In this document: positions 1 to 31,994 of the stretch, piece by piece
Numbering within the stretch: position 1 is the stretch's first letter
Layout: every line of letters starts with the position of its first letter
Virus record (IMG/VR): IMGVR_UViG_3300045988_060868
Coordinates: 1-31,994 of that record
Length of the DNA: 31,994 nt
Direction: 5' to 3' (one strand)
Origin: a virus
Notes under the pieces: generated by a model
The model's database searches: none
What the model was told of the DNA's origin: nothing
What the model saw: only the letters and a program-made list of their open reading frames with translations
Translations under genes and position numbers: made by a program

Positions 1-55
1 TTAAAGAAGTTTACGGAACGGATTGAGGACAATGCAAAGTAATATAACGACGCGT
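1..55. repeat. Terminal direct repeat: bases 1-55 are identical to 31940-31994, marking a circular or circularly permuted genome (assembly overlap)
   Basis: The exact 55-nt string ttaaagaagtttacggaacggattgaggacaatgcaaagtaatataacgacgcgt is read at both ends. The integrase start codon and the last codons of the upstream membrane-protein ORF lie inside it. Confidence 0.9.
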
Positions 56-1317: not shown

Positions 1318-1881
1318 CTACCACTCTTTAATTGTATACAAGACTGTGCCGCCTTTAAGTCCTGTTTGGTCAGCGTGTGCGACCGCTTCCACTCGTCCCG
1401 CTTGATAACCTACTGAACCGTACATTTTACCGTCAACATACGTTACTCCGCTTTTAATCTTATGATTATTGCGGAGATTTATTTTATATACATCTACCTT
1501 TTGTTTGTCCGTATTTTCAACAATGACAGTACGGTCAGTTTTAGCCGTTACGGTAGACGGTAAGGAAGGGTCATTACGGGCGATCTGTTGCCGCGTCATC
1601 TGTGCCGCTTCTTGTACCGTCCTTGCGGGCGTGTAATAGGTTGTTACAGGGGTTGCCCGTTCAACTTCTCGTATAATCGTCGTTGCGTCCCTCGGTGTAA
1701 CGTTAATGGCTTTTGCGAGTTGTTCGGGATTCTTTGCTTGTTCTATAGTGATAACCTTCGGAGCTTTTTCATCTTTATGTAAGTGTCTATGAACAATAAC
1801 CCCCGCCGCAATAACGACGAATAATAAGCTTACGACAATAATAATAGGGGTAAACCGCTTTATATATTCGCTTGTAGGCAT
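1318..1881 (-). CDS. N-terminally membrane-anchored protein, third gene of the lysis cassette (function unknown)
   Basis: One N-terminal TM helix (IIIVVSLLFVVIAAGVIV) followed by a roughly 150-aa soluble domain. Good RBS (aggag) 9 nt upstream. Co-directional and contiguous with the lysin and holin genes, with its own terminator. Confidence 0.6.
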   Translation of the reverse strand: MPTSEYIKRFTPIIIVVSLLFVVIAAGVIVHRHLHKDEKAPKVITIEQAKNPEQLAKAINVTPRDATTIIREVERATPVTTYYTPARTVQEAAQMTRQQIARNDPSLPSTVTAKTDRTVIVENTDKQKVDVYKINLRNNHKIKSGVTYVDGKMYGSVGYQAGRVEAVAHADQTGLKGGTVLYTIKEW

Positions 1882-1893
1882 GTATTAATCTCC

Positions 1894-2493
1894 TTAATCA
1901 ACGTCAAAATCAAGAACTATATCAGCGTCAAACTCATTTCCTTCTATGTTTTCACTAAAGGTATATTGCCAGATATTAGCACCGGGATAGCCGCAATAGG
2001 GGTTAAGATGAGAAACCCACAAGCCGCACCCGCCAAGCTGTTCAGGGTATAAGTAATTTTCAAGCCAATCAATATTTGCGTACAGCCCTGTTTTTGCGTA
2101 TCCGGCACTCCACAATTTATTAATGAAAATACTACAGAAATTCGTTAATTCTTGATTGCTCGGCATTCCTCTGTTGGCTTTGTAATCGTCAGCGTCTTCC
2201 ATGTCATACCAAACGCCAAGCGGTAATTTATCGGGGGTAAGCCCGGAGCTTTGTAATGTATTCAATACAAAATCCGCTTCCTGATTGGCCGCGTCTTCAT
2301 CTAAAGCGTAAGAGTAATGGTATACGCCAACTTTAAGACCCGCATTAATTGCTCCGTTTATGTTGTCATAAAAGCAACTATCAAGCGTATTGCGTCCGTA
2401 CCCCAGTCGAATAATTGCAAATTGATAGCCGTTTGCCGCGACGGTTCCCCAGTCTACTAATCCGTTATTTTCACTTACGTCAATTCCTCGCAT
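1894..2493 (-). CDS. Endolysin, glycoside hydrolase family 25 muramidase (catalytic domain only, no obvious cell-wall-binding domain)
   Basis: N-terminus MRGIDVSENNGLVDWGTVAANGYQFAIIRLGYG matches the GH25 (Lyz2 / Cpl-1-like) signature GIDVS..G.IDW. Sits immediately downstream of the holin. Confidence 0.9.
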   Translation of the reverse strand: MRGIDVSENNGLVDWGTVAANGYQFAIIRLGYGRNTLDSCFYDNINGAINAGLKVGVYHYSYALDEDAANQEADFVLNTLQSSGLTPDKLPLGVWYDMEDADDYKANRGMPSNQELTNFCSIFINKLWSAGYAKTGLYANIDWLENYLYPEQLGGCGLWVSHLNPYCGYPGANIWQYTFSENIEGNEFDADIVLDFDVD

Positions 2494-2506
2494 AATAATC
2501 TCCTTT

Positions 2507-3079
2507 CTAGAACTTTACCTTGTTTTCAATTTTCGTTCTTACTAGATCCAAAAACTTGCCAAGCATTACATTGCCGCCGTCGCGAAGGTTTTCGAGAATT
2601 GAAAGAAACTCACTAGAACCCAAATATAACCACACAAGAGAAACGGCAAACTTCCGTTGTCCACTCATTTCATCAAGTAATACCGCCGCGAATGTGGCTA
2701 GTACGTAAGATAACACTTTCTGCACAAACCCTTTTCGCATGTAGCGACTTGAAATAAGCCTTTTTTCAAATGCTATGGGGATAGCTCTGTACTTTTCCCA
2801 AACCGCAATTTCTTCAGGATTATACTGGTACTCGTCAATTAGCATTTGATAGGCAATAGCTGCCCATTTAGTGAGCAAATCAACGAATACCAGAATAATA
2901 AAAATCCCAAGTATCTGCACATGACGAATGCCGATAAGCCATAAAGCAAGGCCGCCCGCAGCACTCAACGCCGCCTTTAAAATAAAATTAGTCGTAAGCG
3001 TTTCCCATGTGTGTGAAAGCGTGTCAAAAATAAAATTCATTTGCCCTCTCCTTTGCATAATAAAAGGGACGTTTGTCAC
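2507..3079 (-). CDS. Holin, TcdE / Phage_holin_4_1-like (likely start at the internal MNFIFD Met)
   Basis: Three predicted TM segments. Conserved motifs (FVDLLTKW, SEFLSILENL) resemble TcdE-family holins. Directly precedes the GH25 lysin. Confidence 0.75.
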   Translation of the reverse strand: MTNVPFIMQRRGQMNFIFDTLSHTWETLTTNFILKAALSAAGGLALWLIGIRHVQILGIFIILVFVDLLTKWAAIAYQMLIDEYQYNPEEIAVWEKYRAIPIAFEKRLISSRYMRKGFVQKVLSYVLATFAAVLLDEMSGQRKFAVSLVWLYLGSSEFLSILENLRDGGNVMLGKFLDLVRTKIENKVKF

Positions 3080-3089
3080 GTCCCCTATT
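3066..3089 (-). terminator. Hairpin plus T-run between the giant virion gene and the holin RBS
   Basis: Minus-strand reading: aGGGGACGtgacaaaCGTCCCttttatt, then the RBS aaaggagag and the holin ATG. Shares the AAGGGACG stem motif with the hairpin at 8618-8645. Confidence 0.5.
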
Positions 3090-6000
3090 TAACTCTGTCG
3101 TACCCGTATACTCTACGGGCAATATTGGCTTTAAGAACGTTAAAGCGATCTAACTGCTCCCGCTTCTGTTCTCCGCTTATGTTCTCATTGTTCATAATCG
3201 CTTTACTTGCTCTTGATAACTTCGTAAGCTGTTCCCTTGCTTCTTTGAGTTTGCCGAATTGGCGTACATCAAAGTCTTCAGGTTTCTGCTTGGTTATTTT
3301 TGCTTCATTGAACAGCTTGTTCTGTGCGTCGAAGTCATCGTATACCCGTTGTACGCTGTTGCTTCCTTGATACGGGGTTGCCGTAAACTTATTAATTTCG
3401 GGCATTTCATACCAACGTTTTGCGGGTCTGTTTGCGGTTTCACCTGTGGCTGCGTCTATCGCCGTAAGTCCAAGCGTTGCGAGGTTACCGCCGTATCCTC
3501 TAATAGTGTTATCCACTTTATACGGAGATACATTAAACAGCGACCCTATCCCCTTCGCTACTGCTGACGTATTTTGACCGTACTGTAAAGCGTCGGGAAG
3601 GTCTTGTTGTGCTTGCGGTACAATACTCTTTTGCCGCCAGAATGAGTAATTAGCTGCCCATTCTGCAATAGGAATAAACGCCGTCGGCATAACACTCGGC
3701 GTAAGCACGTCGGCCACTCGTTCGCCGTACCCTTTAAAGCCTATTCCCTTTCTTCCGTGTTCCTTATCGTCCATCCACTGTAACATGCGTTCAACGCTAG
3801 TCCCATACAATACGCCAAGTTCGAACGGCTTAGGAATTTTGATTAAATGGTCACCGCTCGGAAGAATCCAATACGTATCCTTAACATACTGCGGAAGTTC
3901 CTGATATTCAGGGTTATCCTTATTGATCTGCCATAACGCAACCGTAGGAATAGTTACAAACAAAGTAGCCCGAATAGAAGCCCCTACAGGGTCTTCCTTC
4001 CACACTCTACGAAGCTTATCAGCCCCTTGAACAGCCGCATTAAAGAACGCCACAACCCTATTAGCTGTCTTGGTGTTCTTCCCTATACGGCTAAAGTCGA
4101 TAGTAATATCACGGGCTTCAAGGGCTGCTTGTTGCGGTGTGAGTGATTTACGTTCACTACCAAAAAGCCTATTGGCAAGACCTGTATACCCTTTTCGAGC
4201 ATTGTCGTATTCGGCAAGACGTGTACTTATTTCGGACGCTTCAGAGATTGCCCGCATTACTTCGATAGGGTTCTTTACAACCTTCTGCCATGTCGGTTCT
4301 TTCCTCAGGATTTCGCGGATTTGACCGCCCATATAGTCACGGTCAAGCGAAACCATGGCCGCACCAGAAGCACCGGAACGCAAGTATTCTTGATACAATT
4401 CGCCTTTCTTAATGAATTGCGAAACGCCTTTAAGCGTATCAAATACAGGTAAATACCCATGCTTAGAAAAGATTGCCGCACTTACGTTATCTCGTACAAG
4501 GTTAGCTAATGCGAACCCTGTTGTAGACGTTGCCCCGGCTCTTAACCAACTAGAGGGAGTTTGCATGATTCTTACAAGTAGGTTACTTGCGTTTTTGTCG
4601 CTCATTTCTAACGCTGCTTTTAGTTCGGGAGTTGTTTCGTATACTACCTTTTGGCCACGTTGCCATACTGTAAAAGTATTGTCCGTTGCCCTTGCCGAAC
4701 CCTCTTTAACCTGTTCAACAATACGCCCCATACCGTGAATATCGGCAAGTTTCGCAAAGTTTTGGGCTACTTTATTGCGTTCAATAGCGTTTGTAAACTG
4801 GTATGTGTTCCGTAAAATGCTTTGCAACGGGTCAATAATATCCCGCGTTGACCCTTTGAATCTCTTAATAGGGCTTGCTACGTTAACAAATCCCTTGCTA
4901 CTTGCAAGAAATCCGTCCATGCTTTCCGCTTTAAAGTCACGGAAGAACGGCACGTAATTCGGATACTTCTTGACAAGTTCGGCGTATATTTCAGGCTTTA
5001 ACATCCCTGATTTTACAAGCTGTTGTAATAAGTGCCGTTGGTATTTCTGTAATTCGTCAGCCGCCTTTTTGAACGTTTCATTCTTTTCGAATTTCCGTAA
5101 GGTTGCCACGTCTTCAGCTTTAGAAAACGTCGCCTTTTGCCCGTTGGCATGAAAATCTAAATCATGCTTGGCCACAAGGTAAGCACTAAAGTTTTTACGC
5201 TCTTTAATTCCGATGGGTTCTAGTATAGCTTTAAGCCCTTTAACCCCCGCCGACTTATCGCCAAATTCAACAAGGGCTTGAGCCTTACCCGTCGCACCTC
5301 TGAATAACCACGCCTGTTTATATACGTCGTTTTCAAAGGGGATTTCTTTCCCAATTTGCTTGTTTACTTCTTTCATTAACTGTTCGAACGGGTGCAACTC
5401 GTCAACGGTATGCGTATACAAGCTATGCCCTAAGTCTAAAAGCTTTTCTTTGAAACCGCCGTTATCGGAAATATCTTTGATTCTTGTAGACAGCTTACCG
5501 TCATCGAACGAAATAGAACCCTTTACTCGTTCTTCCGGATCTTGTTTAAACCATTCATGCGTAATCTTGGAAAGCTTATTAATTGCTCCGTTTAATTCCT
5601 TGTCCTTCGCCAGTCGTTCCGTGAAGTGATCGTAAAACGTCGGGAAGTCGGCTTTTGCCTTGTTTCTATCGCTTACATAGTCATGGAAGAACTCAGCGTA
5701 ACCTTCCTTACGGATACCTTCATCGCCTAATTTGTCATACACATTGCCGAAACGGTCATGCACAACCCTTGAAAACTCGGTGTTAAACTTCGGGTCAATA
5801 CTGAATCCGTTCTTATGGTCTACGTGATGACCAAGTTCATGCATAAGCGTATTTATGTCCCCGAAATTACGAGTACGGATTACTTCCGTCATGCGGTTAT
5901 ACCACCCAAGAACGTCTTTACGCTTGCCAAGCCGTCCCGATTTTACACGTTGGTCAAACAAATCGTTAACGGTATTAATAATTTCCCGTCGTGTAACAGG

Positions 6001-8613
6001 CCGTCCCAGTCGCTCTACGCCTTCCCCTGTAGGGGTGTTATTATTGCTAACGTTATATTCCAAATCTTTATCATTGACTTTTCCCGGTTCATCTGTTACT
6101 CTTGAATCACCAGATGTGTCGGGTCTAGCGTCAGACAATGCGGCACTATCACTGGTTGCCTGCGGGGGACGCTCCGACTGTCGGGCTTTTAGCTCATCGC
6201 GAATGTTACTATTGATATATTCAACTTTATCAATAGCAATTTTCCCGCTGAGCATTTTTTTTGCATTCATCGCAAAACCCCCGCGGCGTGCATTGGAATC
6301 ATCTATAAACGATGTTACTATTTCACCAGACCCATTTTTCTTGACTTCAATAACAACCTTATGCAACAGGTTGCTATTTTCCCCACGATAAAACCCAATG
6401 TATTTTAGCCGTCCATCAACCTGTCGTAAAACCACATCGGGATTAGATATCGTGTCTTTTACAAGCTGTGTTACAAACGCTCTTTTCTTGCTCGGGTGCT
6501 GAGTTCCCTTGCTAGAACCTTTGTACAAATGGTCAGCAAGTCTATCAATAGATTCTTTGTTTTTTGAATCGTAAACAAACCTAACAAGATTGTTAAACGG
6601 ATCCCTTATTCCGTTTTTCAAATTAATAATATTTTGTTTTACTTCTTCAACGGCTTCACGCCAACTCATTTCTTCATAGCGTCTTAAATCATCGGCGTTA
6701 TATTGCCTAAATCCTTCTTGGATTTTAGGCGATTTATTAATTTCTTCTGCTAAAGTTTCAGGTGATATGTCAATATTTTGACTTATCGCCTCTTTTTTTA
6801 CGTTATTTTCGGTTGAATCATCAAAAACCGCCTTATTTTCACTTCTAACACCGTTTATATCATCGGTACTAGTATTCATATTCAAGTCATCTTTAGCACG
6901 GCTTAAATCTGATTCTACGAGGTCGTTTTTTGCCGAAATATTTAAATTTTCTTTGTCTCCGCTTACTTGAGAATTATTTTTATCGCTCTCCACGATTTCA
7001 TGAGGAATTTCCCGTTCAGCCTGTTGGATTCGACGAGATTCACCGTTTTCGGATACTCCATTTCTCGGCGTACTCTTATAATCCCCGTAATTGCCATCAA
7101 AAGTTTCACGGGCAATGCGTTGACGTTCTTCGTCTCTGGCTACATTGGGATTAGGTCTTTCATATTCCCTACGAACAATAACCGCCATTTCTTCTGGCGT
7201 TGCGTCGGGGTGTTCTCGCATAGTATTTAATGCGGCTCTTTCGTTCCCCTCTGTTAACTCGTGGATAGAGAAATCAATTTGCGTTTTCCAGTCATAAGGG
7301 TCAAGACCTCTTTCTGCTGCAAAGTCTTTTAATCCCTGTAGCCTGTCATCTGTAAATTGAATTAGCCCTTCTGATCCATATTCGTCATGGCTTACGACTC
7401 TCGTATCAAAGCTACTTTCTGCCCCTATGTTCCCCGTGAGGGCTGCCGCTTCCACGTCTGTAAATCCCGCTGCACGGTAACGGTTGTAAATGTCATTCTG
7501 AAGATTTCCCGTTTCTTCGTAACCACCTTCAGGGCGTTCGGGTGATACATAATCGCTAACGGCTTCTTCAGGGATAACCCCCTCAAACATGCCTTGCGGT
7601 TCGTATGCGGCTGCAAGTTCAGGCGTTTCGCTTTTAATTTCGTTTCTGCCAATATCGTCAAATGCTCCCGCCGCTTTATTGCGTGCGTTTTCTGCCGCTT
7701 CGCCTATCTTCTCTTTAATCTCACCAACTCGTTCAGGGATTACATCAGAGACTTTATTATAAACGCCTTCTTTCACCCCTTTTGGTACTGCCCCTTTAGT
7801 TAACTCTATAGGTAAAAATACGTCGCTCCAAAGGTTAGTAGGGTTATCGACGATATTGCCAATAAACCCAGACGGGTCACTTACTGCACGTGTTACCGGG
7901 TCTATAATAGGGTCTATCGCAAACTGTTTTGCTGTCGCTACGACAGGATTCCCCATAATTCCTTCGGGTGCTTCTCCGTTGGCTTTGGCTTCGGCGTTTT
8001 GCGTTGCAATCTCTGCAAGGTCTCCCGCAATCATCGGAGCGGCCGCAATCCCGGCTACTGCTCGTATAGGTGTCGGCATGAACGGAGTAATAGCAAGATT
8101 GGCGGCGGGATTGCCGATAGCTTCGTTATATAAGTTTCTTCGTGCATTGGTGTAATCCGTACCGCCGTACTGCGTAAGAGTGGCTTCAGGGTCATCAGAT
8201 ACAACCATAGGAACAACGCCGCCGTTTTCGTTAGACGCGTTAACAATAGCGTTGCCAACTTGGTAATTATAATTATCCCAGGCGTTTTTTACATTGTTCC
8301 CCCAGTCTTTTATCGTGTTCCCTACGTTAGTTAACGTTGTTTCCGCTTGGTCAGCGGCTGCTTTTGCGGCATTATCAAACCCGCTTTGCACGTATTCCAC
8401 ATTGTTAGCAATGCCGTTTTTTACGTACTCTACATTGTTGGCGATTCCATCAATAATAGACCCGCCGCCGCTTTGTTGTGCTTGCTGTTGTGCCGCTTGT
8501 TGGGCTAACTGCTGCTGAATGATACCGTTTTCTACAATATCATCAAAATACCCTTGCGGTGTGTAACTTAAACTATCTTGTTCGTTCGGAAAAAGGTTAT
8601 CAAACGCTCCCAT
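3085..8613 (-). CDS. Giant (1,842-aa) multidomain virion/ejection protein with a tail-lysozyme-like domain and an HExxH zincin metallopeptidase motif (polyvalent-protein-like)
   Basis: Residues ~385-470 (nt ~7204-7461) read GNIGAESSFD...SEGLIQFTDDR, resembling the phage tail lysozyme family. HELGHHVDH is at residues 925-933 (nt 5815-5841). N-terminus is Q/N/G-rich. Long C-terminal region has no recognised motif. It is the last gene of the structural block. Confidence 0.7.
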   Translation of the reverse strand: MGAFDNLFPNEQDSLSYTPQGYFDDIVENGIIQQQLAQQAAQQQAQQSGGGSIIDGIANNVEYVKNGIANNVEYVQSGFDNAAKAAADQAETTLTNVGNTIKDWGNNVKNAWDNYNYQVGNAIVNASNENGGVVPMVVSDDPEATLTQYGGTDYTNARRNLYNEAIGNPAANLAITPFMPTPIRAVAGIAAAPMIAGDLAEIATQNAEAKANGEAPEGIMGNPVVATAKQFAIDPIIDPVTRAVSDPSGFIGNIVDNPTNLWSDVFLPIELTKGAVPKGVKEGVYNKVSDVIPERVGEIKEKIGEAAENARNKAAGAFDDIGRNEIKSETPELAAAYEPQGMFEGVIPEEAVSDYVSPERPEGGYEETGNLQNDIYNRYRAAGFTDVEAAALTGNIGAESSFDTRVVSHDEYGSEGLIQFTDDRLQGLKDFAAERGLDPYDWKTQIDFSIHELTEGNERAALNTMREHPDATPEEMAVIVRREYERPNPNVARDEERQRIARETFDGNYGDYKSTPRNGVSENGESRRIQQAEREIPHEIVESDKNNSQVSGDKENLNISAKNDLVESDLSRAKDDLNMNTSTDDINGVRSENKAVFDDSTENNVKKEAISQNIDISPETLAEEINKSPKIQEGFRQYNADDLRRYEEMSWREAVEEVKQNIINLKNGIRDPFNNLVRFVYDSKNKESIDRLADHLYKGSSKGTQHPSKKRAFVTQLVKDTISNPDVVLRQVDGRLKYIGFYRGENSNLLHKVVIEVKKNGSGEIVTSFIDDSNARRGGFAMNAKKMLSGKIAIDKVEYINSNIRDELKARQSERPPQATSDSAALSDARPDTSGDSRVTDEPGKVNDKDLEYNVSNNNTPTGEGVERLGRPVTRREIINTVNDLFDQRVKSGRLGKRKDVLGWYNRMTEVIRTRNFGDINTLMHELGHHVDHKNGFSIDPKFNTEFSRVVHDRFGNVYDKLGDEGIRKEGYAEFFHDYVSDRNKAKADFPTFYDHFTERLAKDKELNGAINKLSKITHEWFKQDPEERVKGSISFDDGKLSTRIKDISDNGGFKEKLLDLGHSLYTHTVDELHPFEQLMKEVNKQIGKEIPFENDVYKQAWLFRGATGKAQALVEFGDKSAGVKGLKAILEPIGIKERKNFSAYLVAKHDLDFHANGQKATFSKAEDVATLRKFEKNETFKKAADELQKYQRHLLQQLVKSGMLKPEIYAELVKKYPNYVPFFRDFKAESMDGFLASSKGFVNVASPIKRFKGSTRDIIDPLQSILRNTYQFTNAIERNKVAQNFAKLADIHGMGRIVEQVKEGSARATDNTFTVWQRGQKVVYETTPELKAALEMSDKNASNLLVRIMQTPSSWLRAGATSTTGFALANLVRDNVSAAIFSKHGYLPVFDTLKGVSQFIKKGELYQEYLRSGASGAAMVSLDRDYMGGQIREILRKEPTWQKVVKNPIEVMRAISEASEISTRLAEYDNARKGYTGLANRLFGSERKSLTPQQAALEARDITIDFSRIGKNTKTANRVVAFFNAAVQGADKLRRVWKEDPVGASIRATLFVTIPTVALWQINKDNPEYQELPQYVKDTYWILPSGDHLIKIPKPFELGVLYGTSVERMLQWMDDKEHGRKGIGFKGYGERVADVLTPSVMPTAFIPIAEWAANYSFWRQKSIVPQAQQDLPDALQYGQNTSAVAKGIGSLFNVSPYKVDNTIRGYGGNLATLGLTAIDAATGETANRPAKRWYEMPEINKFTATPYQGSNSVQRVYDDFDAQNKLFNEAKITKQKPEDFDVRQFGKLKEAREQLTKLSRASKAIMNNENISGEQKREQLDRFNVLKANIARRVYGYDRVK

Positions 8614-8617: not shown

Positions 8618-8645
8618 TACCCTTTCATATATAAACAAGAAGGGA
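8618..8645 (-). terminator. Hairpin plus T-rich tract between the 514-aa gene and the giant gene (attenuator/terminator)
   Basis: Minus-strand: GAAGGGGCGtttataaCGTCCCTTCttgtttatatat, followed by the RBS gaaagggtaaaacATG. Confidence 0.45.
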
Positions 8646-8665
8646 CGTTATAAACGCCCCTTCTA

Positions 8666-10210
8666 TTAATCATCAGGCACCCAGTCGGCGTACCTGTTAA
8701 GACCCTTTGCGATTAACTCAGATTTAATCTGTGCTGACGATACCCCTGACGCTTTTAACTGGTTGATTCTATCAGCAACTTGTTGTTGCTCTTCCTCGGA
8801 GTACGTCGGGTTAGCTAAACCCATAGACGTTCTAAGCTTAGCATAATACGGGCTTTCAGATTCGTCCTCTCCGGGGTGACTTGATTGCCATGCCTTATGT
8901 AACGTAACGAGGTTTTTTACGGCTGCATTTTGTTGTGCTGCTCTCGCCGTTGCCGCTTTTGTCGGGTCAACGTATTTACCAACATACTTCATTGAACCGT
9001 CAGCCCCTACCATGTAGGCCGTACCGTCATTCATAACCTTGATATTTTTCTTACCGAAATTGCCAAGGTTTTGTATTTTCCCGTCATCGGTCATTACGAA
9101 CATTTGGCCGTTTTGTGCTTGCTGCATGTTGGATTTTGCGTAGTTGCCAACATCGTCAATTGTGCCTTGGGTCATGTTGAACCGGGCAACGTGTCCGTTA
9201 CTCATCTGTTGGAACTTGTAATCATCATGCAACGCATAAATGCTATTGAGGTTGTTCATGTCAATCTTTTCAGCACCTATCTTATTAGCATAGTAATTGT
9301 ACCTATCGACGGCTGCGGCTATGCCCTTAACCTTCTGCGAATTATACGTATCAACAACCGTATTACCGTCCTTATCCTTAGTGTAAATAAGGCTCTGTAT
9401 GATTTGATTACGCATAGGTGCAAGAACGTTATCGGAGAACGCATTAGCCTGTTTGGTGTACTCGTTATTCACATCGGTATTATAGAGTTCCTCGGCGATC
9501 CCCTTCGCGGTTTTAAAGTCCATACCAGATTTAACGAGGGTCAATACATCTGCCCCTAGCCGCTTCCGTGCGTCCTTTATAATGTCGCTCTTATTCGGAA
9601 CTTGATAGCCCGGCTTGTCCTGTTGCGTCTTGTTATCCGTATCGGTGCTATCTACCTCGCGGGACGCATTACCGAAAAAATTCGGATTCCCCGTTACCAT
9701 GCCAAAATACCCTTGCGGCTGTTGGGGTTGTTGGCCAAATCCCCATAACCCGCCACGTTGATTAAACGAAGGTGTCGAAGAAAATGCAGCCGGTGCCGCC
9801 GTCGTATCGGCATTACTGTTTTGTATCGGCTGTGCCGTTGTCGGTGTAGGTGCTACAGGTGTGGCCTGTGCAGCTTGAGTAATAGGCGTTGTGTTCTGAC
9901 TTTGTCCAAATCCCCACAATCCACCGCTTCCATTGCCTATTTGACTACGAAGGGAATTACTCATATACTGCCCCGCATTAAATTGCGAAGCGGGTAATGA
10001 CTGATTCCATAATCCGTTGCGTCCGTCATCTACAACGGCTGTTTTGTCTGCGGCCTGTTGCTGTCCATTTCCACCACCGCCAAGAACATTATTAAGCCCT
10101 TTAGCCATGTTGTTTTCGTTTAGCTGTCCCAGTCTATGGGTTGCGTACATTCCCGCAAGCTTACCAAGTGCCGCCCACGGCTCAAAGTCCTGTAAATAAA
10201 TCGTACTCAT
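8666..10210 (-). CDS. N/Q/G-rich virion protein with FG-like repeats (putative internal/ejection protein)
   Basis: N-terminal ~190 aa are low-complexity (GGGGNGQQQ, two copies of GGLWGFGQ, a PT-rich linker), then a globular C-terminal domain. Size and position parallel P22 ejection proteins. No motif recognised. Confidence 0.5.
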   Translation of the reverse strand: MSTIYLQDFEPWAALGKLAGMYATHRLGQLNENNMAKGLNNVLGGGGNGQQQAADKTAVVDDGRNGLWNQSLPASQFNAGQYMSNSLRSQIGNGSGGLWGFGQSQNTTPITQAAQATPVAPTPTTAQPIQNSNADTTAAPAAFSSTPSFNQRGGLWGFGQQPQQPQGYFGMVTGNPNFFGNASREVDSTDTDNKTQQDKPGYQVPNKSDIIKDARKRLGADVLTLVKSGMDFKTAKGIAEELYNTDVNNEYTKQANAFSDNVLAPMRNQIIQSLIYTKDKDGNTVVDTYNSQKVKGIAAAVDRYNYYANKIGAEKIDMNNLNSIYALHDDYKFQQMSNGHVARFNMTQGTIDDVGNYAKSNMQQAQNGQMFVMTDDGKIQNLGNFGKKNIKVMNDGTAYMVGADGSMKYVGKYVDPTKAATARAAQQNAAVKNLVTLHKAWQSSHPGEDESESPYYAKLRTSMGLANPTYSEEEQQQVADRINQLKASGVSSAQIKSELIAKGLNRYADWVPDD

Positions 10211-11688
10211 TAGGCTTCTCCTTTCTTATTGCCTTTCTTCTTTTCGCCTTCGCTCAAGGCCTGTAATTCGTCCTGGCTAATGCCTTCGGCTAAGATACCG
10301 TTAGCATAAAACAGGTTATCCCCGTCACATTCAAGTTCATATACCGTTTCTGCAATGCCTGTATCTTCCTTGCTTGTGACCTTTTGCCAACCGTGTACCG
10401 TCATAATAGGCTCACCAACTTCGACTTCAGATACAAGCTTTAAGCCGTCGTTAGTAAGCACCTTTTCACTGGCGGTAGTAACCACACCTGTATCTTCCGT
10501 GTTAAGTCGTACCGTCGGAGATTCTCCCATTTCGTGCATAGCAATAACGTTAAGCACTTTCCCAAGGGATACAACCTTATCACCTGTAATAACTTCTTCA
10601 ATCGGCTTACTTCCTTCAACCGTTGCCACTTCTGTACCTTTCGCAAAACAAAATCCGCTCATAAATCCTCCTAAAAATCCGCCGCTTCCTTGTCGCACTG
10701 TCGTTTGTGCGGGTGCGGCTAATCCATAACGTCCTTGCATGTAGGCTTTTAACAAATCCTCATTATCAGAATTATTAAGCTGTGCCATGGTGTAATAATC
10801 TTTAGCCGGCTGTATTGCCGCCTGTTGCGTCGAACTACCTGTACTAATCGGAGCGGCCGCCAACCCTTCACGCTGTCCGACAAGTCCCGCAGCTGTTCCC
10901 GCATTGTTCACCTGATTGGCGTATCCCTGATTCATTAACGCCGCCTGATTCATAATTCCAGACTGTTGGTTATTGAATTGGTTGCCCCACAAATTCATCT
11001 TTGCCCCAATGCCATTCAAAGCATTGGTATAGGCTTGATTGTTGAGGTTAGCCGCCGTATTAATATCTTGGGTGTATTGTGCTGCCAGTGCGTTCGTTGC
11101 GTTTTTGGATATGTCATTGATAGCACTGTCAGCCTGTGAAGAGTTGATAATCCCGCGACTGGCCAAGCCTGATAACGTATTGCCAACGGTACTTTGCAAG
11201 TCATTGTTTAAAGCCGTCTGCCGTGCCTTTGCGTACGCTTCAGGGATATTGCCTTGGGTAATGTCATTCATGGCAGCCTGATTCTTTAATACCGCTCCAT
11301 TATACTCATTGGCTAAGCTATCGGCGTTATTTACCATTCCGTCCGTTGCCGCTCCAAGTTGTTGAGCGTACTTTGTATTATCCGTAAGGTTTCTTGTCCC
11401 CGCGGATGATACTTGATTTTGCAGTGCCGCTAGTGCATTCTGGTTGCCGTTGTTGGCAGCCAAGTAATTGTTATACATGTCTTGATAATTCGGCGTTACG
11501 GCGTTATTTAATGCCCCGTCTCCCATGCCCTGAAGTCTATTAGCACTAGCGTTTGCCCCGTTAATCCAGTTTAACTGATTCTGAAGTAACCCTTTTTCTT
11601 CAACGCTTGCTTCAGGCAGATGGGCTTCAGTGTGCGATACTTTAGACTTTTTACCGCCACCGCCGAAAAGCTGTAAGTTAAATATCAT
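10210..11688 (-). CDS. N/Q/A-rich virion protein ending in a C-terminal Hint (Hedgehog/intein-like) autoprocessing domain
   Basis: Residues 347-469 (nt ~10282-10650) show GGFMSGF|CFAKGTEVATVEG (Hint block A, C-F-x-x-G-T-x-V), IMTVHG (TxH-like block B) and VYELECDGDNLFYANGILAEG (intein block F). The terminal HN is replaced by EG. ATGA-type overlap with the next gene. Confidence 0.7.
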   Translation of the reverse strand: MIFNLQLFGGGGKKSKVSHTEAHLPEASVEEKGLLQNQLNWINGANASANRLQGMGDGALNNAVTPNYQDMYNNYLAANNGNQNALAALQNQVSSAGTRNLTDNTKYAQQLGAATDGMVNNADSLANEYNGAVLKNQAAMNDITQGNIPEAYAKARQTALNNDLQSTVGNTLSGLASRGIINSSQADSAINDISKNATNALAAQYTQDINTAANLNNQAYTNALNGIGAKMNLWGNQFNNQQSGIMNQAALMNQGYANQVNNAGTAAGLVGQREGLAAAPISTGSSTQQAAIQPAKDYYTMAQLNNSDNEDLLKAYMQGRYGLAAPAQTTVRQGSGGFLGGFMSGFCFAKGTEVATVEGSKPIEEVITGDKVVSLGKVLNVIAMHEMGESPTVRLNTEDTGVVTTASEKVLTNDGLKLVSEVEVGEPIMTVHGWQKVTSKEDTGIAETVYELECDGDNLFYANGILAEGISQDELQALSEGEKKKGNKKGEA

Positions 11689-11697
11689 GTTTATCTC

Positions 11698-12141
11698 CTA
11701 TAAGGTGCGTTCAAGGCTTTCTTTGTTCGTTATAAGGACCTTATAATCCTTCCCGTAATAAGTGTAGTCATAGGCGGGTAGCCGTTTCATATCCCACTTT
11801 TTGACAAATCCATTTACGCTTTTTCGTGCCGTAGCCGTAACGATTGTATCAAGTTTATTCTTATCCATTACGTCTACAATGAATTTCCCGATTACTTTCA
11901 TGTTGCCGTATGTCTGTAAAATGCTAAACACGCGTTCCCCATGTTCTTCGTTAATTCCCCAGAATATGAACCCTTCGTTAGGAAAGAAGTTAAAATATTG
12001 AAAGGTATCATCTCGGAAGTGATTACCTTCGTCAAAGAAAAAGCCATCAAATGAAACCTTTTCACCCGTTCGCCGTTCATAGTCTTTTACCATGTCTTGT
12101 AAGCTGTCTGTTTTCATGACTATACCCCCACGGCGATCCAT
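11698..12141 (-). CDS. Hypothetical virion-associated protein, possibly a tail fibre assembly/chaperone (likely start at MKTDSLQD, ~12117)
   Basis: ORF immediately downstream of the fibre-like gene. No recognised motif. Assignment is by position only. Confidence 0.35.
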   Translation of the reverse strand: MDRRGGIVMKTDSLQDMVKDYERRTGEKVSFDGFFFDEGNHFRDDTFQYFNFFPNEGFIFWGINEEHGERVFSILQTYGNMKVIGKFIVDVMDKNKLDTIVTATARKSVNGFVKKWDMKRLPAYDYTYYGKDYKVLITNKESLERTL

Positions 12142-13520
12142 TGCATTGTTGCCGTCGCAAGAAGCATTCCTTTAATCGTGGCATGAACTTCATACGTGAA
12201 ATCGGTTTTGTTCATCTCGCGGGCAAACACAGAAGCGGCTGAATTGCCCCAAAAACGTCCGTACGCTCCATCGGCAACAGGTGTAATAGTAAACCCCATC
12301 CATAAACATTTATCACTAAAAGCCGTGGCGAATGTTTGCCGAGGAAATATCATCGGGTCGTTACGAGTGTCGGGCTGTTCCCCCACCTGTCTTTTACCGC
12401 CCTGTATGGTAAAGTTATGAAACGCCTTACCAAACTTCATATACCACAAGTCGGGGTTGGTCGTATTAAAGTCCATACCTATAGACGATAAACCAGTATT
12501 ACCTAACGCCTGTACAACGTCATTGCCATCTTTAATGTGAAGAGCTGAAATAATCGAATTAACAGCCCCTAGCGAAACGCCTAATGATAAATTAGCGTCC
12601 TCGGTATTACTTGTAATAATGTTGACGCTGTCAATTATGCCGCTTCCGTGCGTTACCTTTAATTTCCCGTTGTCATAAGCCGCCGACTTTACAAACCCGT
12701 CAAATATCGGCTTATGTGCGGCCGTGTCGCCTTTATGATTGGTTAAGTCACTTCTAACAGCGTTATCAGCGTCGTTTATATACTTTAACGTGTCATCCGC
12801 TAACTTTGCTTTGGTTACGGATTTGTCCGCAAGGTTTACCGTCTTTACTTCTCCGCTTCCAATGCTTACGGATTTTATGCCCTCGTTAGCAATTTGCGTA
12901 CTTGTAATAGAGCCTGTCGCAATGCCGCTTCCGTTCATGCTCGGCTGATAATATTTAATGGTCTTTACGCTTGCTCCGTCCGTTGTTACTTCGGCAATAA
13001 GTACACGTTGTTTACGTTCCCATTGGGATCCGTTATATACATACATCATGTCCATAATGTCGTTGTAGTACATGGCGTTTAAAACGGTGTCAGGCGGCGT
13101 TGACTGTCGCACCGGCTTTACGGTTGTACTGCCATAACTTACGGCACCGCTTCCAGTCCGCTCTACATATATGTACTGCGTTTTATTAGGCAGCAAACTC
13201 CAAGCACTCACCTTACTATCAATAGACGCCACGTAATCAACTGCCCCAAACTCGTTATACCCGTCTGCAAACGATACAATTACGGGCGTTTGTGTTCCGT
13301 CGAGCGTTACGCCTAGGTTATCCCCTGTTAAAAAGGAATATTCCCCGTTGCTTATCTTGCCGTTAAGAAATCTATTGCGGAGACCCGTCGCACCGCCGCC
13401 GCTTTTTAGTTCTACTGTTCTAGCGACTTCTAATATTTCGTCCCGGTTCTTCTTAATACTTTGCCGCACTGTATCGCCTTGAGGCGTTATATCAAGTGCG
13501 TATTTTTCTTTATATGCCAT
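12120..13520 (-). CDS. Tail fibre / receptor-binding-like protein
   Basis: Fibre-like motifs (VNLADKSVTKAKLADDTLKYINDADNAVRSDL...GDTAAH) typical of phage tail fibre N-terminal repeats. S/T/G-rich. Follows the hub-like gene. Confidence 0.55.
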   Translation of the reverse strand: MAYKEKYALDITPQGDTVRQSIKKNRDEILEVARTVELKSGGGATGLRNRFLNGKISNGEYSFLTGDNLGVTLDGTQTPVIVSFADGYNEFGAVDYVASIDSKVSAWSLLPNKTQYIYVERTGSGAVSYGSTTVKPVRQSTPPDTVLNAMYYNDIMDMMYVYNGSQWERKQRVLIAEVTTDGASVKTIKYYQPSMNGSGIATGSITSTQIANEGIKSVSIGSGEVKTVNLADKSVTKAKLADDTLKYINDADNAVRSDLTNHKGDTAAHKPIFDGFVKSAAYDNGKLKVTHGSGIIDSVNIITSNTEDANLSLGVSLGAVNSIISALHIKDGNDVVQALGNTGLSSIGMDFNTTNPDLWYMKFGKAFHNFTIQGGKRQVGEQPDTRNDPMIFPRQTFATAFSDKCLWMGFTITPVADGAYGRFWGNSAASVFAREMNKTDFTYEVHATIKGMLLATATMQWIAVGV

Positions 13521-13523
13521 AGG

Positions 13524-14945
13524 CTATACCTCTTCATATGTGTAATCCAATTGCCGTAAGGAAATAGCTCCCTTTTGCACATGGATTTTAAACTGTACGT
13601 TACGATTAGCACCGCCGCCGATTTTATATACTTTCGTGTACTCGTTAACGTTTAACTTATCGTCCGCACTAAAAGTACGTTCATCGGCGTAATATGTTCT
13701 GGTTGATTTACTAGCAAACGTTACAGGCTTCGGTGTCTTGTCCGATATTTGTACGCTACCGTAGCCGTCTATCAGGTTATGAGTTACGAAATTGTAATTC
13801 ATAATAAGAACGAACAGCCGCATTGCAAGCCTGTTTCCGCTTACTATAGACGTTTCTATTTGCTGTCCGTCGTCTAAGTCTGTACGGTCATCAAGCACCC
13901 CTATTTTATTGCCGTACGCAACGTAAATGTTCTTATTCACGTCCACCACATCATGCACGTCATGAACAAACTGCCGTGACGTAAACACTCCTCGGCCGTC
14001 CTGATACCTCGGCAAGTAGTGATACAGGAAAATACCGCCGCCGTTATGCGGCTTAATCCATAATTGCTTACGGCTCGGACAATGCCACATCTCGCAATCT
14101 TTTCCAACGTAAGTAAGTAGATAAGAGTTAATGTTTAACCCTGTTTCAAACGGTTGTATCTCTGCGTATGTGTTTGTCGGCATGAACGACATTAAGCCCT
14201 GTTCTCCAAGGTAATAACTTCTATCGTCTATATTAATCGCCGAACCACTACAAAAACCCGTGCTAGACAAAGGGTACACGGATAAATTCCCTTCGTCAGG
14301 GGTTCCAACAACCTGATAAACCTTTCCGTATTCCTTGTAAACGATAATTGCACGTGTTAGAAAATCGACGGCAACTATTGCCCCTTTGTCTTTGTACCCA
14401 ACATCTAAATACTGCCCGCTTGAGCTGTCGTTTTTGTTATTCTCCCAACTGTGGTAATCGCCAATAGCCGACCACGTTAGCCGATGAGAATAAATAGACG
14501 CAACGAGAACACGACCCGCATGGCTGTTTACAATCTCACAAGACGGAGAGCCGTCTACCGTCGATAACTCACCCGTTCCGCTTATGGCTTGTAGCTTACC
14601 GCCGCTTGCGATGAGAATATCACCGCTGTAAGCGTGATACTTCGGCTTGTGCTGCCCTGTGAGCGTTCCTAATCGCTTACGTGTTTTTAGATCCGTTTCG
14701 TATAACTCTGTTCCGTGTGTAAAGTACCATTTGTGCCGGTACACGTCGTAATATAACGTGTCTATCGACATTCCCGCGTCGTACGCAATGGTTACCCCTG
14801 ATACCGTTCTTAAAGCATTGTCCGTTCTATCAAACTCGCAATTCATTGCCTGAGTAAGTGCCTGTATATCAATCCCTTCAGGTGGATTGCTCCAGTCAAG
14901 GCCAAGCCTATATCCGTTTGTACTTGCTATTGCTCGTTCGCCCAT
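13524..14945 (-). CDS. Tail hub / tail-tube-like structural protein (P22 gp10-like by size and position)
   Basis: 473 aa, third gene after the major capsid gene, the same position and size as P22 gp10. No sequence motif recognised, so the call is positional. Confidence 0.4.
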   Translation of the reverse strand: MGERAIASTNGYRLGLDWSNPPEGIDIQALTQAMNCEFDRTDNALRTVSGVTIAYDAGMSIDTLYYDVYRHKWYFTHGTELYETDLKTRKRLGTLTGQHKPKYHAYSGDILIASGGKLQAISGTGELSTVDGSPSCEIVNSHAGRVLVASIYSHRLTWSAIGDYHSWENNKNDSSSGQYLDVGYKDKGAIVAVDFLTRAIIVYKEYGKVYQVVGTPDEGNLSVYPLSSTGFCSGSAINIDDRSYYLGEQGLMSFMPTNTYAEIQPFETGLNINSYLLTYVGKDCEMWHCPSRKQLWIKPHNGGGIFLYHYLPRYQDGRGVFTSRQFVHDVHDVVDVNKNIYVAYGNKIGVLDDRTDLDDGQQIETSIVSGNRLAMRLFVLIMNYNFVTHNLIDGYGSVQISDKTPKPVTFASKSTRTYYADERTFSADDKLNVNEYTKVYKIGGGANRNVQFKIHVQKGAISLRQLDYTYEEV

Positions 14946-15457
14946 TACGTAAGCCCTCTAGACGCCTTGATTAACTCCGTCAAGTGGTCAATAAACCCTT
15001 TATCATAATTAGCGTAATCAATCATTAGCGACTTCTTTTTAATCAAGAATGAAATAAGTTGTACCAGATACGACGTAAAAAACTCGCTAAACGGAACGGC
15101 TGAATCCATGGAATTTATATGGTTCTTTCGGATACTGTAAAACACGTCTTGCACGTCCTCACCGTCATATGTTGAGAACAGTCCGTTTACAATCCGTATG
15201 GGATACCCGCTTTTAGGTACAAAACCCATAAAGTTGGTAGGAACGTCGCTATTGTTCGTTACCGTCATACTCTTAACCACTTCATTATCACGAATTGCAA
15301 CCAGTATCATAGAGAGGTAATCAATGCCAGCGTTTATATACTGAATGTAGTCATTGTTATCATCCAGTATTTCGTTGCTTTCTACACTAATCAGCGTAAT
15401 CAGTTCTTGTACTGTCATAATCCCAATACCCCTTAGAAAGAACATAGCCGCTTTCAC
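14945..15457 (-). CDS. Head-tail connector/adaptor-like protein (weak gp6-like N-terminus)
   Basis: N-terminus MTVQELITLISVESNEILDDNNDYIQYINAGIDYL loosely resembles Phage_connect_1 head-tail connectors. Positional support only. Confidence 0.35.
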   Translation of the reverse strand: MKAAMFFLRGIGIMTVQELITLISVESNEILDDNNDYIQYINAGIDYLSMILVAIRDNEVVKSMTVTNNSDVPTNFMGFVPKSGYPIRIVNGLFSTYDGEDVQDVFYSIRKNHINSMDSAVPFSEFFTSYLVQLISFLIKKKSLMIDYANYDKGFIDHLTELIKASRGLT

Positions 15458-15947: not shown

Positions 15948-15957
15948 CTCATAAAAG

Positions 15958-15990
15958 AATAAGGGGAAAGGTTATCCCTTCCCCCTTTGT
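15958..15990 (-). terminator. Intrinsic terminator/attenuator after the major capsid gene
   Basis: Minus-strand: aaaGGGGGAAGGGataacCTTTCCCCttattcttttat. A GC-rich imperfect stem plus a T-rich tail, 13 nt after the capsid stop. Typical partial terminator after scaffold and capsid genes. Confidence 0.55.
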
Positions 15991-16002
15991 CCTTTGCGTT
16001 CA

Positions 16003-16974: not shown

Positions 16975-16985
16975 GTTTTTATCTC

Positions 16986-17909: not shown

Positions 17910-17995
17910 TGCGGGACGAAATAATTAATTGCAGTTTAACGCCGTTGCCGGGCGAATGTGGTTTATAATTAGCCGTTTAACGTCTTGCCAAGGAC
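17891..17995. repeat. Three ~25-nt direct repeats (consensus GCCGTTTAACGTCaTTGCcGG) in the portal-scaffold intergenic region / scaffold 5' end
   Basis: ctGCCGTTTAACGTCATTGCGGG (17893-17915), ttGCAGTTTAACGCCGTTGCCGG (17930-17952) and taGCCGTTTAACGTCTTGCCAAGG (17970-17993), spaced ~37-40 nt. Each contains a CGTTtAACG inverted core. Confidence 0.6.
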
Positions 17996-31981: not shown

Positions 31982-31994
31982 TATAACGACGCGT

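What the first reader, a model, noticed from the sequence alone, without database searches (positions are those of the whole stretch)
3085..8613. 1,842-aa polyvalent-like virion protein combining a tail-lysozyme domain, an HExxH zincin motif and ~900 aa of unassigned sequence
Three features are read directly. A lysozyme-like block AALTGNIGAESSFD...SEGLIQFTDDR sits at aa ~385-470 (nt ~7204-7461). A zinc-metallopeptidase motif NTLMHELGHHVDH sits at aa 923-933 (nt 5815-5841). A compact domain at aa ~640-800 (nt ~6214-6696) and a long C-terminal region have no recognisable motif. The protein is the terminal gene of a podovirus-like structural block with no tape-measure, tube or sheath genes. In that position it resembles the cell-wall-penetrating ejection proteins T7 gp16 and P22 gp16. 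It is far larger than those and adds a peptidase. That is reminiscent of the injected 'polyvalent proteins' described for phages and conjugative elements, which may also carry anti-defence activities.
Basis: partly seen in the sequence, partly recalled or inferred. Interest (0 to 1): 0.75.

Follow-up and report, generated by a model that had tools for sequence, protein, structure and literature searches.

The report
Giant injected multi-tool phage protein
This 1,842-residue gene is a real member of an already described class of giant multi-domain "polyvalent" phage proteins (a cell-wall cutter, a swappable effector domain, a zinc protease and a very widespread tail module of unknown fold), so it is a well-dissected example of a known kind, not a new kind.

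Summary
Window 3085-8613(-) is one 1,842-aa ORF with a Phage_lysozyme2 domain (aa 372-506) and a single HExxH (H925/E926/H929).

The C-terminus carries Pfam LPD38 ("large polyvalent protein associated domain 38", E 2.7e-46).

- **Conserved core.** The zinc protease plus the following ~800 aa form one core. The ~800-aa part matches 15,193 protein clusters, always at the C-terminus of proteins of 650-4,000 aa with variable N-terminal cargo.
- **Swapped cassette.** The "compact domain" (aa ~630-812) is a sub-threshold PBECR2-like (putative RNase) domain. It occurs as at least 7 alleles sharing 27-73% identity, while the rest of the protein is 81-98% identical.
- **Genome and host.** The window is a complete 31.9-kb temperate podovirus genome. 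A near-identical prophage sits in a Megasphaera/Anaeroglobus-like (diderm Negativicutes) chromosome.

Packaging, injection and self-cleavage are inferred from homologues, not shown here. Verdict: new member of a known kind, moderate interest.

The parts
3085..8613 (-). Whole gene: 1,842-aa LPD38-class polyvalent protein. It is the last structural gene, lies directly upstream of the holin and endolysin, and takes up 17% of the 31.9-kb genome.
7504..8613 (-). N-terminal region, aa 1-370. It is rich in Gly/Ala/Asn/Gln, has a tandem GIANNVEYV motif (aa 56-75) and a hydrophobic segment at aa 173-204. No family was assigned. Only 19 of 256 diverse relatives share it.
7096..7500 (-). Phage_lysozyme2 domain, aa 372-506 (the phi29 gp13 N-terminal type). 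The GAES motif, with E399, is invariant in 80 family clusters.
   Evidence: E 1.5e-23; (phi29 gp13 3csr, E 0.12)
6079..6813 (-). Exchanged cassette, aa ~601-845. Against the near-identical prophage L002, nucleotide identity falls from 0.91-0.97 to 0.44-0.58 and third-codon-position identity to 0.31-0.52. There are at least 7 discrete alleles in the family.
6178..6726 (-). Folded mid domain, aa 630-812. It is PBECR2-like (putative BECR-fold RNase). The predicted core is a helix at aa 707-723 carrying invariant R711, followed by four strands. T721, P725 and D726 are invariant. 'TS' at aa 767-768 is conserved in most alleles.
   Evidence: PBECR2 E 1.2e-4, 22.7 bits against cut-off 27.1; 6 of 10 divergent homologues hit it
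6007..6177 (-). Predicted disordered linker, aa 813-869 (pLDDT below 35), with the motif RQSERPPQATSD at aa 811-822 straddling its N-terminal edge. It is a candidate processing site; this is inference.
5509..6006 (-). Zincin (gluzincin) metallopeptidase domain, aa 870-1035. Key residues are H925-E926-x-x-H929 (nt 5827-5841) and E970 in the EGxAEF motif (nt 5704-5706). It resembles the anthrax lethal factor / MtfA type.
   Evidence: lethal factor 2l0r, E 0.0073
3088..5508 (-). Conserved C-terminal module, aa 1036-1842. It is almost all alpha-helical, is predicted with confidence, and has no solved structural relative. It matches 15,193 cluster representatives, always at the C-terminus.
3400..3912 (-). 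Pfam LPD38 domain, aa 1568-1738.
   Evidence: E 2.7e-46, 158.5 bits against cut-off 27
3925..3990 (-). Hydrophobic helix, aa 1542-1563, just before LPD38. It is a possible membrane-inserting segment; this is inference.
8638..8664 (-). Terminator-like hairpin with a 12-bp stem, immediately upstream of the ribosome-binding site (GAAAGGG) and the ATG.
3064..3086 (-). Terminator-like hairpin with a 9-bp stem, overlapping the stop codon.

Best explanation
This is an LPD38-class 'polyvalent protein' of a temperate short-tailed phage that infects Megasphaera/Anaeroglobus-like Negativicutes.

**Shown here**
- One polypeptide holds a phi29-gp13-type lysozyme, a PBECR2-like domain flanked by disordered linkers, a lethal-factor-like zinc endopeptidase with all catalytic residues intact, and an ~800-aa helical module that includes LPD38.
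- The peptidase plus the helical module form a conserved chassis. It always sits at the C-terminus, and the N-terminal cargo differs between phages.
- The PBECR2-like domain is a recombining cassette.

**Inferred from homologues and established work on polyvalent and ejection proteins**
- The protein is packed inside the capsid through its conserved C-terminal chassis.
- It is expelled through the tail ahead of or together with the DNA.
- The lysozyme cuts peptidoglycan locally.
- The helical chassis, with its hydrophobic helix, helps bridge the cell envelope.
- The zinc peptidase cuts the protein at its own linkers and releases the mid-domain effector into the cytoplasm.
- The effector probably acts there on RNA or on a variable host or defence target. 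That would explain why it alone diversifies.
For: **Domains**
- LPD38 and Phage_lysozyme2 score far above their Pfam cut-offs.
- PHROG 9854 covers aa 891-1835.

**Zincin**
- 154 of 256 diverse relatives carry the domain, and 148 of those keep HExxH.
- H925, H929 and E970 are 100% conserved; E926 and E974 are 99%.
- The profile's best PDB matches are anthrax lethal factor (E 0.0073), MtfA and an ATLF-like domain. The HExxH and the distal Glu are aligned.
- The AF2 domain has pLDDT ~90 and the zincin topology of helix, three-stranded sheet, HExxH helix, helices.

**Chassis versus cargo**
- Region-by-region phmmer hits among 256 diverse relatives: 248-256 for the C-terminal regions, 151 for the zincin, and only 12-21 for the lysozyme, mid domain and N-terminus.
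- Long relatives carry SNF2/ResIII helicases, ddrB-ParB, Zeta toxin, ART-PolyVal, PBECR1, SLT, LPD3 and LPD23 as cargo. Vibrio relatives carry a methyltransferase.

**Cassette**.

**Virion and ejection role**
- The gene is last in the structural block.
- In the T7-ordered pelagiphage Lederberg, the homologue occupies the gp16 slot.
- LPD38 proteins are found in virions by mass spectrometry in phi24B and JC1.
- The PTXU04 homologue (tblastn E 6e-40) is essential for infection.
- The self-processing idea comes from Iyer et al. 2017.
Against: - No experiment exists on this protein or on any close relative.
- Packaging, ejection, muralytic activity, self-cleavage and RNase activity are all unproven here.
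- The PBECR2 match is below Pfam's cut-off, and Foldseek gave only non-significant Sm-like hits for the mid domain.
- The C-terminal module has no structural or sequence relative among solved ejection proteins, so its role as a conduit or packaging module rests on position and analogy only.
- The phi24B authors propose a different job for the peptidase, namely peptidoglycan degradation.
Confidence: 0.7

Rival explanations
1. It is purely an envelope-penetration (ejection-conduit) protein. Both enzymes attack the cell wall: the lysozyme cuts glycan strands and the zinc peptidase cuts peptide cross-links. The mid domain is a structural or surface-exposed part that varies for reasons unrelated to an intracellular effector role.
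For: The phi24B authors suggest that the metallopeptidase of gp47 degrades peptidoglycan. The cyanopodophage A4 ejection protein gp28 combines a lytic transglycosylase with a metallopeptidase. phi29 gp13 pairs this type of lysozyme with a peptidase (my own knowledge of phi29 gp13; weak match).
Against: The closest solved relatives of this zincin are protein-specific endopeptidases or regulators (lethal factor, MtfA, and weakly ImmA/IrrE-like PrpR and PprI), not cell-wall peptidases. The zincin is conserved in relatives whose cargo is plainly cytoplasmic, such as helicases, methyltransferases, ParB nucleases and ADP-ribosyltransferases. That fits a processing role better. The mid domain repeatedly hits an RNase family.
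Confidence: 0.17
2. It is a DarB-like anti-restriction protein, or a DNA methylase as close homologues are named in nr ('Type I restriction enzyme Methylase').
For: Homologues that are 86-87% identical carry that name. Bcep22/JC1 gp69 and the Vibrio and Shewanella relatives do contain methyltransferase and/or helicase domains together with LPD38.
Against: Pfam, NCBIfam and PHROG find no methyltransferase or helicase domain anywhere in this protein, even at E up to 1-5. The similarity to those proteins is confined to the zincin/LPD38 chassis.
Confidence: 0.03
3. It is a tape measure protein of a long-tailed phage.
For: PHROG 9570 ('tail length tape measure protein') matches aa 333-592 at E 1e-15.
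Against: That match covers only the lysozyme part, which some tape measures also carry. It aligns to profile positions 452-684 of 689. The genome has no tube, sheath or tail-chaperone genes, and its portal is P22-type. All cultured phages that share the chassis have podovirus-sized genomes, and the three inspected have podovirus-style late-gene layouts.
Confidence: 0.02

Closest known systems
LPD38-containing large polyvalent proteins of podoviruses: phi24B/933W-type gp47, Bcep22 gp75 / JC1 gp69 'DarB-like', coliphage PTXU04 gp25, Bacillus phage Page gp20
   Same: They share the C-terminal LPD38 module and are giant late genes placed next to the lysis genes or the end of the structural block. 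Direct similarity to PTXU04, Page, the Vibrio phages and the pelagiphages runs over 660-960 residues; for the Vibrio and Shewanella phages it also covers the zincin. phi24B gp47 is reported to carry a metallopeptidase domain. The same logic applies: a fixed chassis with variable cargo.
   Different: The cargo differs. This protein has a lysozyme plus a PBECR2-like cassette, and no methyltransferase, helicase, LPD1, LPD3 or LPD5. It is smaller (1,842 aa against 2,200-4,500). Its host is a diderm Firmicute. In Page the lytic domain is a separate upstream gene.
Polyvalent proteins as defined by Iyer, Burroughs, Anand, de Souza and Aravind 2017 (PMC5512222)
   Same: Unrelated enzymatic domains sit in one polypeptide around a zincin metallopeptidase hub, in a virion-gene context. 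LPD38, PBECR2 and lysozyme are listed there as phage-specific domains.
   Different: That work did not single out the zincin plus ~800-aa module as one co-conserved C-terminal unit. It also did not describe allelic cassette exchange of a PBECR-like domain among near-identical phages; it did note mosaicism in Helicobacter jhp1044.
T7 gp16 and P22 gp16/gp20/gp7 ejection (internal virion) proteins
   Same: This is a likely functional analogue. It is a large internal protein with a peptidoglycan-cutting domain, encoded late. In a T7-ordered pelagiphage the homologue sits exactly in the gp16 slot.
phi29 gp13 (tail-associated peptidoglycan hydrolase), N-terminal lysozyme domain
   Same: The lysozyme domain belongs to the same Pfam family, Phage_lysozyme2. 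There is a weak direct match to 3csr.
   Different: gp13 is a 365-aa tail-knob protein whose second domain is a cell-wall endopeptidase, not an HExxH zincin (my own knowledge).
Anthrax lethal factor / MtfA / ATLF-like gluzincins
   Same: They share HExxH plus a distal Glu about 41-45 residues downstream in an ExxAE-like helix. This is the same link that Iyer et al. reported for polyvalent-protein peptidases.
   Different: The match is marginal (E 0.007-0.15). The substrates are presumably the phage protein itself.

Membership tests
Polyvalent protein, LPD38 class (Iyer et al. 2017; Pfam PF18857) | LPD38 domain above the Pfam gathering score | tested here: met
   158.5 bits against a cut-off of 27, at aa 1568-1738.
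Polyvalent protein, LPD38 class (Iyer et al. 2017; Pfam PF18857) | Two or more unrelated domains, including enzymes, in one large polypeptide | tested here: met
   Lysozyme, zincin and LPD38, plus a PBECR2-like domain.
Polyvalent protein, LPD38 class (Iyer et al. 2017; Pfam PF18857) | Zincin-like metallopeptidase with HExxH and a distal Glu | tested here: met
   H925, E926, H929 and E970 are 99-100% conserved. The predicted fold topology fits. Lethal factor matches at E 0.0073.
Polyvalent protein, LPD38 class (Iyer et al. 2017; Pfam PF18857) | Encoded among the virion genes of a phage or prophage | tested here: met
   It is the last structural gene, between the tail genes and the holin.
Polyvalent protein, LPD38 class (Iyer et al. 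2017; Pfam PF18857) | Physically packaged in the virion and delivered into the host | not testable with these tools
   Known only for proteins that carry LPD38 in other phages: phi24B gp47 and JC1 gp69 by mass spectrometry.
Polyvalent protein, LPD38 class (Iyer et al. 2017; Pfam PF18857) | Self-processing into separate domains by the peptidase | not testable with these tools
   This is a hypothesis in the source paper. Here only disordered linkers and intact catalytic residues are seen.
Phage_lysozyme2 (PF18013; phi29 gp13 N-terminal type) | Profile match above the gathering score | tested here: met
   84 bits against a cut-off of 28.2, at aa 372-506, covering profile positions 3-138 of 140.
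Phage_lysozyme2 (PF18013; phi29 gp13 N-terminal type) | Conserved acidic catalytic residue in the G-x-E-S motif | tested here: met
   I396, G397, A398, E399 and S400 are 100% conserved in 80 family clusters. That E399 is the catalytic residue is inferred.
PBECR2 (PF18810; phage BECR-fold RNase) | Profile match above the gathering score | tested here: not met
   The best score for the window is 22.7 bits, E 1.2e-4, against a cut-off of 27.1. Six of 10 divergent homologues hit the same family at E below 0.01.
PBECR2 (PF18810; phage BECR-fold RNase) | BECR core: a helix followed by 4-5 strands, with His/Arg in the helix and Thr/Ser near the C-terminus | tested here: inconclusive
   The AF2 model has a helix at aa 707-723 (invariant R711) followed by 4 strands, at pLDDT 70-88. 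Foldseek gave only non-significant Sm-like hits.
T7 gp16 / gp15-type internal virion proteins | Sequence or fold homology | tested here: not met
T7 gp16 / gp15-type internal virion proteins | Position after gp14/gp15-like genes and before the tail fibre in T7-ordered genomes | tested here: met
   The homologue Lederberg_8 (1,254 aa) in Pelagibacter phage Lederberg occupies that position.
Tape measure protein | Encoded between tail chaperones and distal tail proteins, with tube genes present | tested here: not met
   No such genes were found. The PHROG 9570 hit is limited to the lysozyme part.
DarB-like anti-restriction protein / DNA methylase | Methyltransferase and helicase domains | tested here: not met
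   Pfam, NCBIfam and PHROG detect none.

The most novel reading that the evidence does not exclude
The zincin + LPD38 module would be a universal virion 'delivery chassis', comparable in logic to polymorphic-toxin carriers. In these Megasphaera-type phages it would carry a polymorphic, recombining PBECR2-like effector whose alleles are matched to strain-specific host RNAs or defence systems. Cassette identity, rather than tail fibres, would then decide which strains can be productively infected. The chassis itself would be a large helical architecture with no solved relative and with its own still-unknown activity.
Probability: 0.3. Interest if true: 0.65.

Novelty: new member of a known kind. 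Interest (0 to 1): 0.45.

Why it matters
The zincin/LPD38 chassis is one of the most widespread large phage protein modules with no known structure or mechanism. Its ~800-aa helical part alone matches 15,193 clusters at 50% identity in public data.

This small, complete 31.9-kb genome offers a compact version for study. It has one wall-cutting domain, one swappable effector and the chassis. A natural allelic series changes only the effector. That makes three questions directly testable:
- how giant proteins are packed into and expelled from short-tailed phages;
- whether the built-in peptidase releases the cargo;
- what the variable domain targets in gut and oral Negativicutes.

It does not overturn current views. 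It fits the 2017 polyvalent-protein framework.

Tried and rejected
**Searches that found nothing**
- Megablast of the gene against 50,697 phage records: no match.
- Scan of GTDB species genomes with the full protein: no relative.
- NCBIfam: nothing relevant.
- PDB sequence search with the full protein: only spurious HisF hits on aa 712-778.
- PDB profile search with the C-terminal module: nothing.
- hhalign of the C-terminal profile against T7 gp16, T7 gp15 and the N4 vRNAP C-terminus: nothing.
- hhalign of the zincin profile against the N4 vRNAP C-terminus: it aligned the HExxH region but was not significant.
- Foldseek of the mid + zincin model: nothing significant. The best hits were ImmA/IrrE-like PrpR and PprI, and Sm proteins.
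- Profile search of the mid domain in the 5.8-billion-protein set: nothing, not even the family itself. I treat this as a technical null.
- phmmer of the neighbouring tail proteins against those of the Page, Vibrio and pelagiphage relatives: no similarity.
- Search for a template repeat that would indicate a diversity-generating retroelement behind the cassette variation: none.

**Explanations rejected**
- Tape measure protein, DarB-like protein or methylase, and homology to T7 or P22 gp16. The reasons are given under the rival explanations and the membership tests.
Full report
**1. Observation**

Window 3085-8613(-) is a single ATG-initiated ORF of 1,842 aa.
- AALTGNIGAESSFD at aa 390-403.
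- SEGLIQFTDDR at aa 414-424.
- NTLMHELGHHVDH at aa 921-933 (nt 5815-5853). The HELGH core is at aa 925-929, and it is the only HExxH in the protein.

Pfam places Phage_lysozyme2 at aa 372-506 (E 1.5e-23). PHROG 9854, of unknown function, covers aa 891-1835 at E 2.4e-151. The protein contains no cysteine. It has two moderately hydrophobic segments, aa 173-204 and aa 1542-1563.

**2. Genome and host**

An exact 55-nt repeat at both ends shows that the window is a complete, circularly assembled 31,939-bp genome.

On the minus strand the gene order runs as follows:
- small and large terminase, a P22-type portal and a Phage_capsid_3 major capsid protein;
- seven tail-region genes;
- the giant gene;
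- holin, GH25 endolysin and one gene of unknown function.

An integrase lies on the opposite (plus) strand just past the lysis genes, and the early genes lie at the other end of the window. No tape measure, tube or sheath gene is detectable.

A relative that is 85% identical is integrated in a bacterial contig next to rpmG-secE-nusG-rplK-rplA. Its ribosomal protein L1 is 94% identical to that of Anaeroglobus geminatus and 88% identical to that of Megasphaera hominis. The host group is therefore Veillonellaceae, which are Firmicutes with an outer membrane. The phage has many close relatives in metagenomes, often as contigs of 32-34 kb, but no match by DNA among cultured phages.

**3. The conserved chassis**

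*Similarity to cultured phages.* tblastn shows that only the C-terminal half is shared with cultured phages. These include the Bacillus megaterium podoviruses Page, Palmer and Pony (30% identity), pelagiphages, many Vibrio phages, Shewanella X14, coliphage PTXU04 and a Planktothrix phage annotated 'large polyvalent protein'.

*Spread and position.* An exhaustive HMMER search with aa 1036-1842 finds 15,193 representatives of 50%-identity clusters at E up to 1e-3, and 5,710 at E up to 1e-30. The match is always at the C-terminus of proteins of about 650-4,000 aa.

*Region-by-region conservation.* Searches against 256 diverse relatives show a sharp split:
- The three C-terminal segments occur in 248-256 of them.
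- The zincin segment occurs in 151.
- The lysozyme, mid domain and N-terminus occur in only 12-21.

*The zincin.* In the relatives that have it, H925, H929 and E970 are 100% conserved. E926, E974, G903 and R913 are 99-100% conserved. A profile of the domain finds anthrax lethal factor (E 0.0073), MtfA and an ATLF-like domain as the best PDB sequences, with HExxH and the distal Glu aligned. This reproduces the link reported by Iyer et al. 2017. AlphaFold2 gives this domain pLDDT ~90 with the expected topology of helix, three-stranded sheet, HExxH helix and further helices. The peptidase is therefore real, probably active, and part of the core rather than an addition.

*The variable cargo.* Long relatives carry SNF2/ResIII and Sbno-type helicases, ddrB-ParB, Zeta toxin, ART-PolyVal, PBECR1, SLT, LPD3 and LPD23 as N-terminal cargo. 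Vibrio relatives carry a methyltransferase.

**4. The ~800-aa module**

With a 51-sequence alignment, AlphaFold2 predicts aa 1036-1842 with mean pLDDT 84.9 and pTM 0.84. The model is almost entirely helical, with two small beta-hairpin units.

No solved relative was found:
- Foldseek against the PDB found nothing (best E 0.43, TM at most 0.13).
- A profile search of PDB sequences found nothing.
- hhalign against T7 gp16, T7 gp15 and the N4 vRNAP C-terminus found nothing.

The module keeps many invariant polar residues, including R1374, D1375, E1461, E1468, D1506 and N1525 (window numbering derived). It may therefore do more than act as a scaffold.

Its role is inferred from four observations:
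- It is the last structural gene here and in phage Page.
- In the T7-ordered pelagiphage Lederberg the homologue sits where gp16 sits, between a gp15-sized gene and the tail fibre.
- LPD38 proteins are abundant in purified phi24B and JC1 virions but invisible in the symmetric cryo-EM map of phi24B.
- The PTXU04 homologue is required for plaque formation.

**5. The mid domain**

*Family assignment.* The region at aa ~630-812 gives a PBECR2 (phage BECR-fold RNase) hit at E 1.2e-4. This is below Pfam's cut-off (22.7 bits against 27.1). Six of ten divergent homologues hit the same family independently.

*Predicted structure.* The model shows a helix at aa 707-723 carrying invariant R711, followed by four strands, at pLDDT 70-88. 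Disordered linkers flank the domain. Foldseek gave no significant match. I rate the RNase assignment as plausible but unproven.

*Variation in the close family.* This is the clearest result. Across 80 close family clusters, identity to the window is 0.92-0.97 in the N-terminus and 0.96-0.98 from the zincin to the end. It is only 0.36-0.38 across aa 641-870. There are at least seven discrete alleles, sharing 27-73% identity with one another.

*Comparison with prophage L002.* Codon by codon, nucleotide identity drops abruptly from 0.91-0.97 to 0.44-0.58 between aa ~601 and ~845. Third-position identity there is 0.31-0.52, which is close to saturation. Every other late protein of the two phages is 92-99% identical, including the tail-fibre-like ones.

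*Other lineages.* One related lineage (1,753 aa) replaces the domain with a helical spacer. All alleles keep the skeleton DPLG...KRAF...DT...PD...TS. No template repeat suggests a retroelement mechanism.

This pattern indicates exchange of old, homologous alleles by recombination in the conserved flanks. Such a pattern is typical of effectors in an arms race.

**6. Mechanism**

The steps shown and the steps inferred are separated in the best explanation. In short:
- The chassis would mediate incorporation into the capsid and exit through the tail.
- The lysozyme would open the peptidoglycan.
- The chassis, with its hydrophobic helix, would help span the envelope of a diderm host.
- The lethal-factor-like peptidase would cut the disordered linkers and free the mid-domain effector.

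The main rival is that the peptidase attacks peptidoglycan peptides, as suggested for phi24B and as seen in A4 gp28. I consider it less likely. This zincin's relatives are protein endopeptidases, and it is conserved next to clearly cytoplasmic cargo.

**7. Comparison with what is known, and novelty**

The protein passes every testable defining feature of an LPD38-class polyvalent protein. It fails the tests for T7 gp16 homology, tape measure protein and DarB/methylase. The nr name 'Type I restriction enzyme Methylase', carried by homologues 86-87% identical, is not supported by any domain in this protein.

The class has been described since 2017, and its members are now being seen in virion proteomes. 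This is therefore a new member of a known kind.
- evidence that the zincin and the ~800-aa module form one ubiquitous unit;
- evidence that the module has no solved structural relative;
- the allelic cassette;
- the host assignment.

**8. Scores**

- Interest: 0.45.
- Most novel reading not excluded: a universal delivery chassis carrying a polymorphic effector that sets strain-level host range. Probability about 0.3; interest 0.65 if true.

Noticed in passing
window 1-55 and 31940-31994: An exact 55-nt direct repeat sits at the two ends of the window. This is an assembly overlap, so the window is a complete circular phage genome of 31,939 bp. The giant gene takes up 17% of it.
   Followed up: partly
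window 3085-8613 (-): The 1,842-aa protein contains no cysteine at all.
   Followed up: no
window 8638-8664 (-) and 3064-3086 (-): Two similar GC-rich terminator-like hairpins on the gene's own strand bracket the giant gene. One lies just upstream of its ribosome-binding site and the other over its stop codon. They could attenuate expression or mark a module boundary. A third, bidirectional hairpin at 1290-1311 ends the lysis block.
   Followed up: partly
window 10210-11688 (-), aa 347-379: A 492-aa tail-region protein has a Hint_2 (intein/hedgehog-type autoprocessing) N-terminal motif hit just above Pfam's cut-off (29.3 bits against 28.4, E 1.3e-6).
   Followed up: no
homologues P0048, P0064, P0110 and P0116 of the window protein: Public nr records name these homologues 'Type I restriction enzyme Methylase', and P0048 and P0064 are 86-87% identical to the window protein. 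No methyltransferase domain is detectable in the window protein. The name probably spread from Vibrio and Shewanella relatives that do carry one.
   Followed up: partly
window 1318-3079 (-); locus L002 15397-17118: The inferred host group (Megasphaera/Anaeroglobus, Negativicutes) has an outer membrane. The lysis block nevertheless shows only a holin, a GH25 endolysin and a 187-aa protein of unknown function (phrog_10797). No recognisable spanin was found.
   Followed up: no
window 8389-8448 (-), aa 56-75: There is a tandem duplication of the peptide GIANNVEYV near the N-terminus, at aa 56-64 and aa 67-75.
   Followed up: no
window 7174-7353 (-), aa 421-480: A second, milder divergence dip lies inside the lysozyme domain. 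Against the otherwise ~95%-identical prophage L002, amino-acid identity there is 68% and third-position identity is 0.58.
   Followed up: no
window 2507-3079 (-): The holin ORF as listed (190 aa, GTG start at 3079) probably starts 13 codons later. The homologue in L002 is called at 177 aa. This leaves the hairpin at 3064-3086 intergenic.
   Followed up: partly
loci L001, L003 and L004 compared with window 8666-20049: Apart from the giant protein's chassis, none of the window's tail-region proteins shows phmmer similarity to the late proteins fetched from the Page, Vibrio 1.183.O or pelagiphage Lederberg loci. In this comparison the chassis is more widely conserved than the tail proteins around it.
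   Followed up: partly
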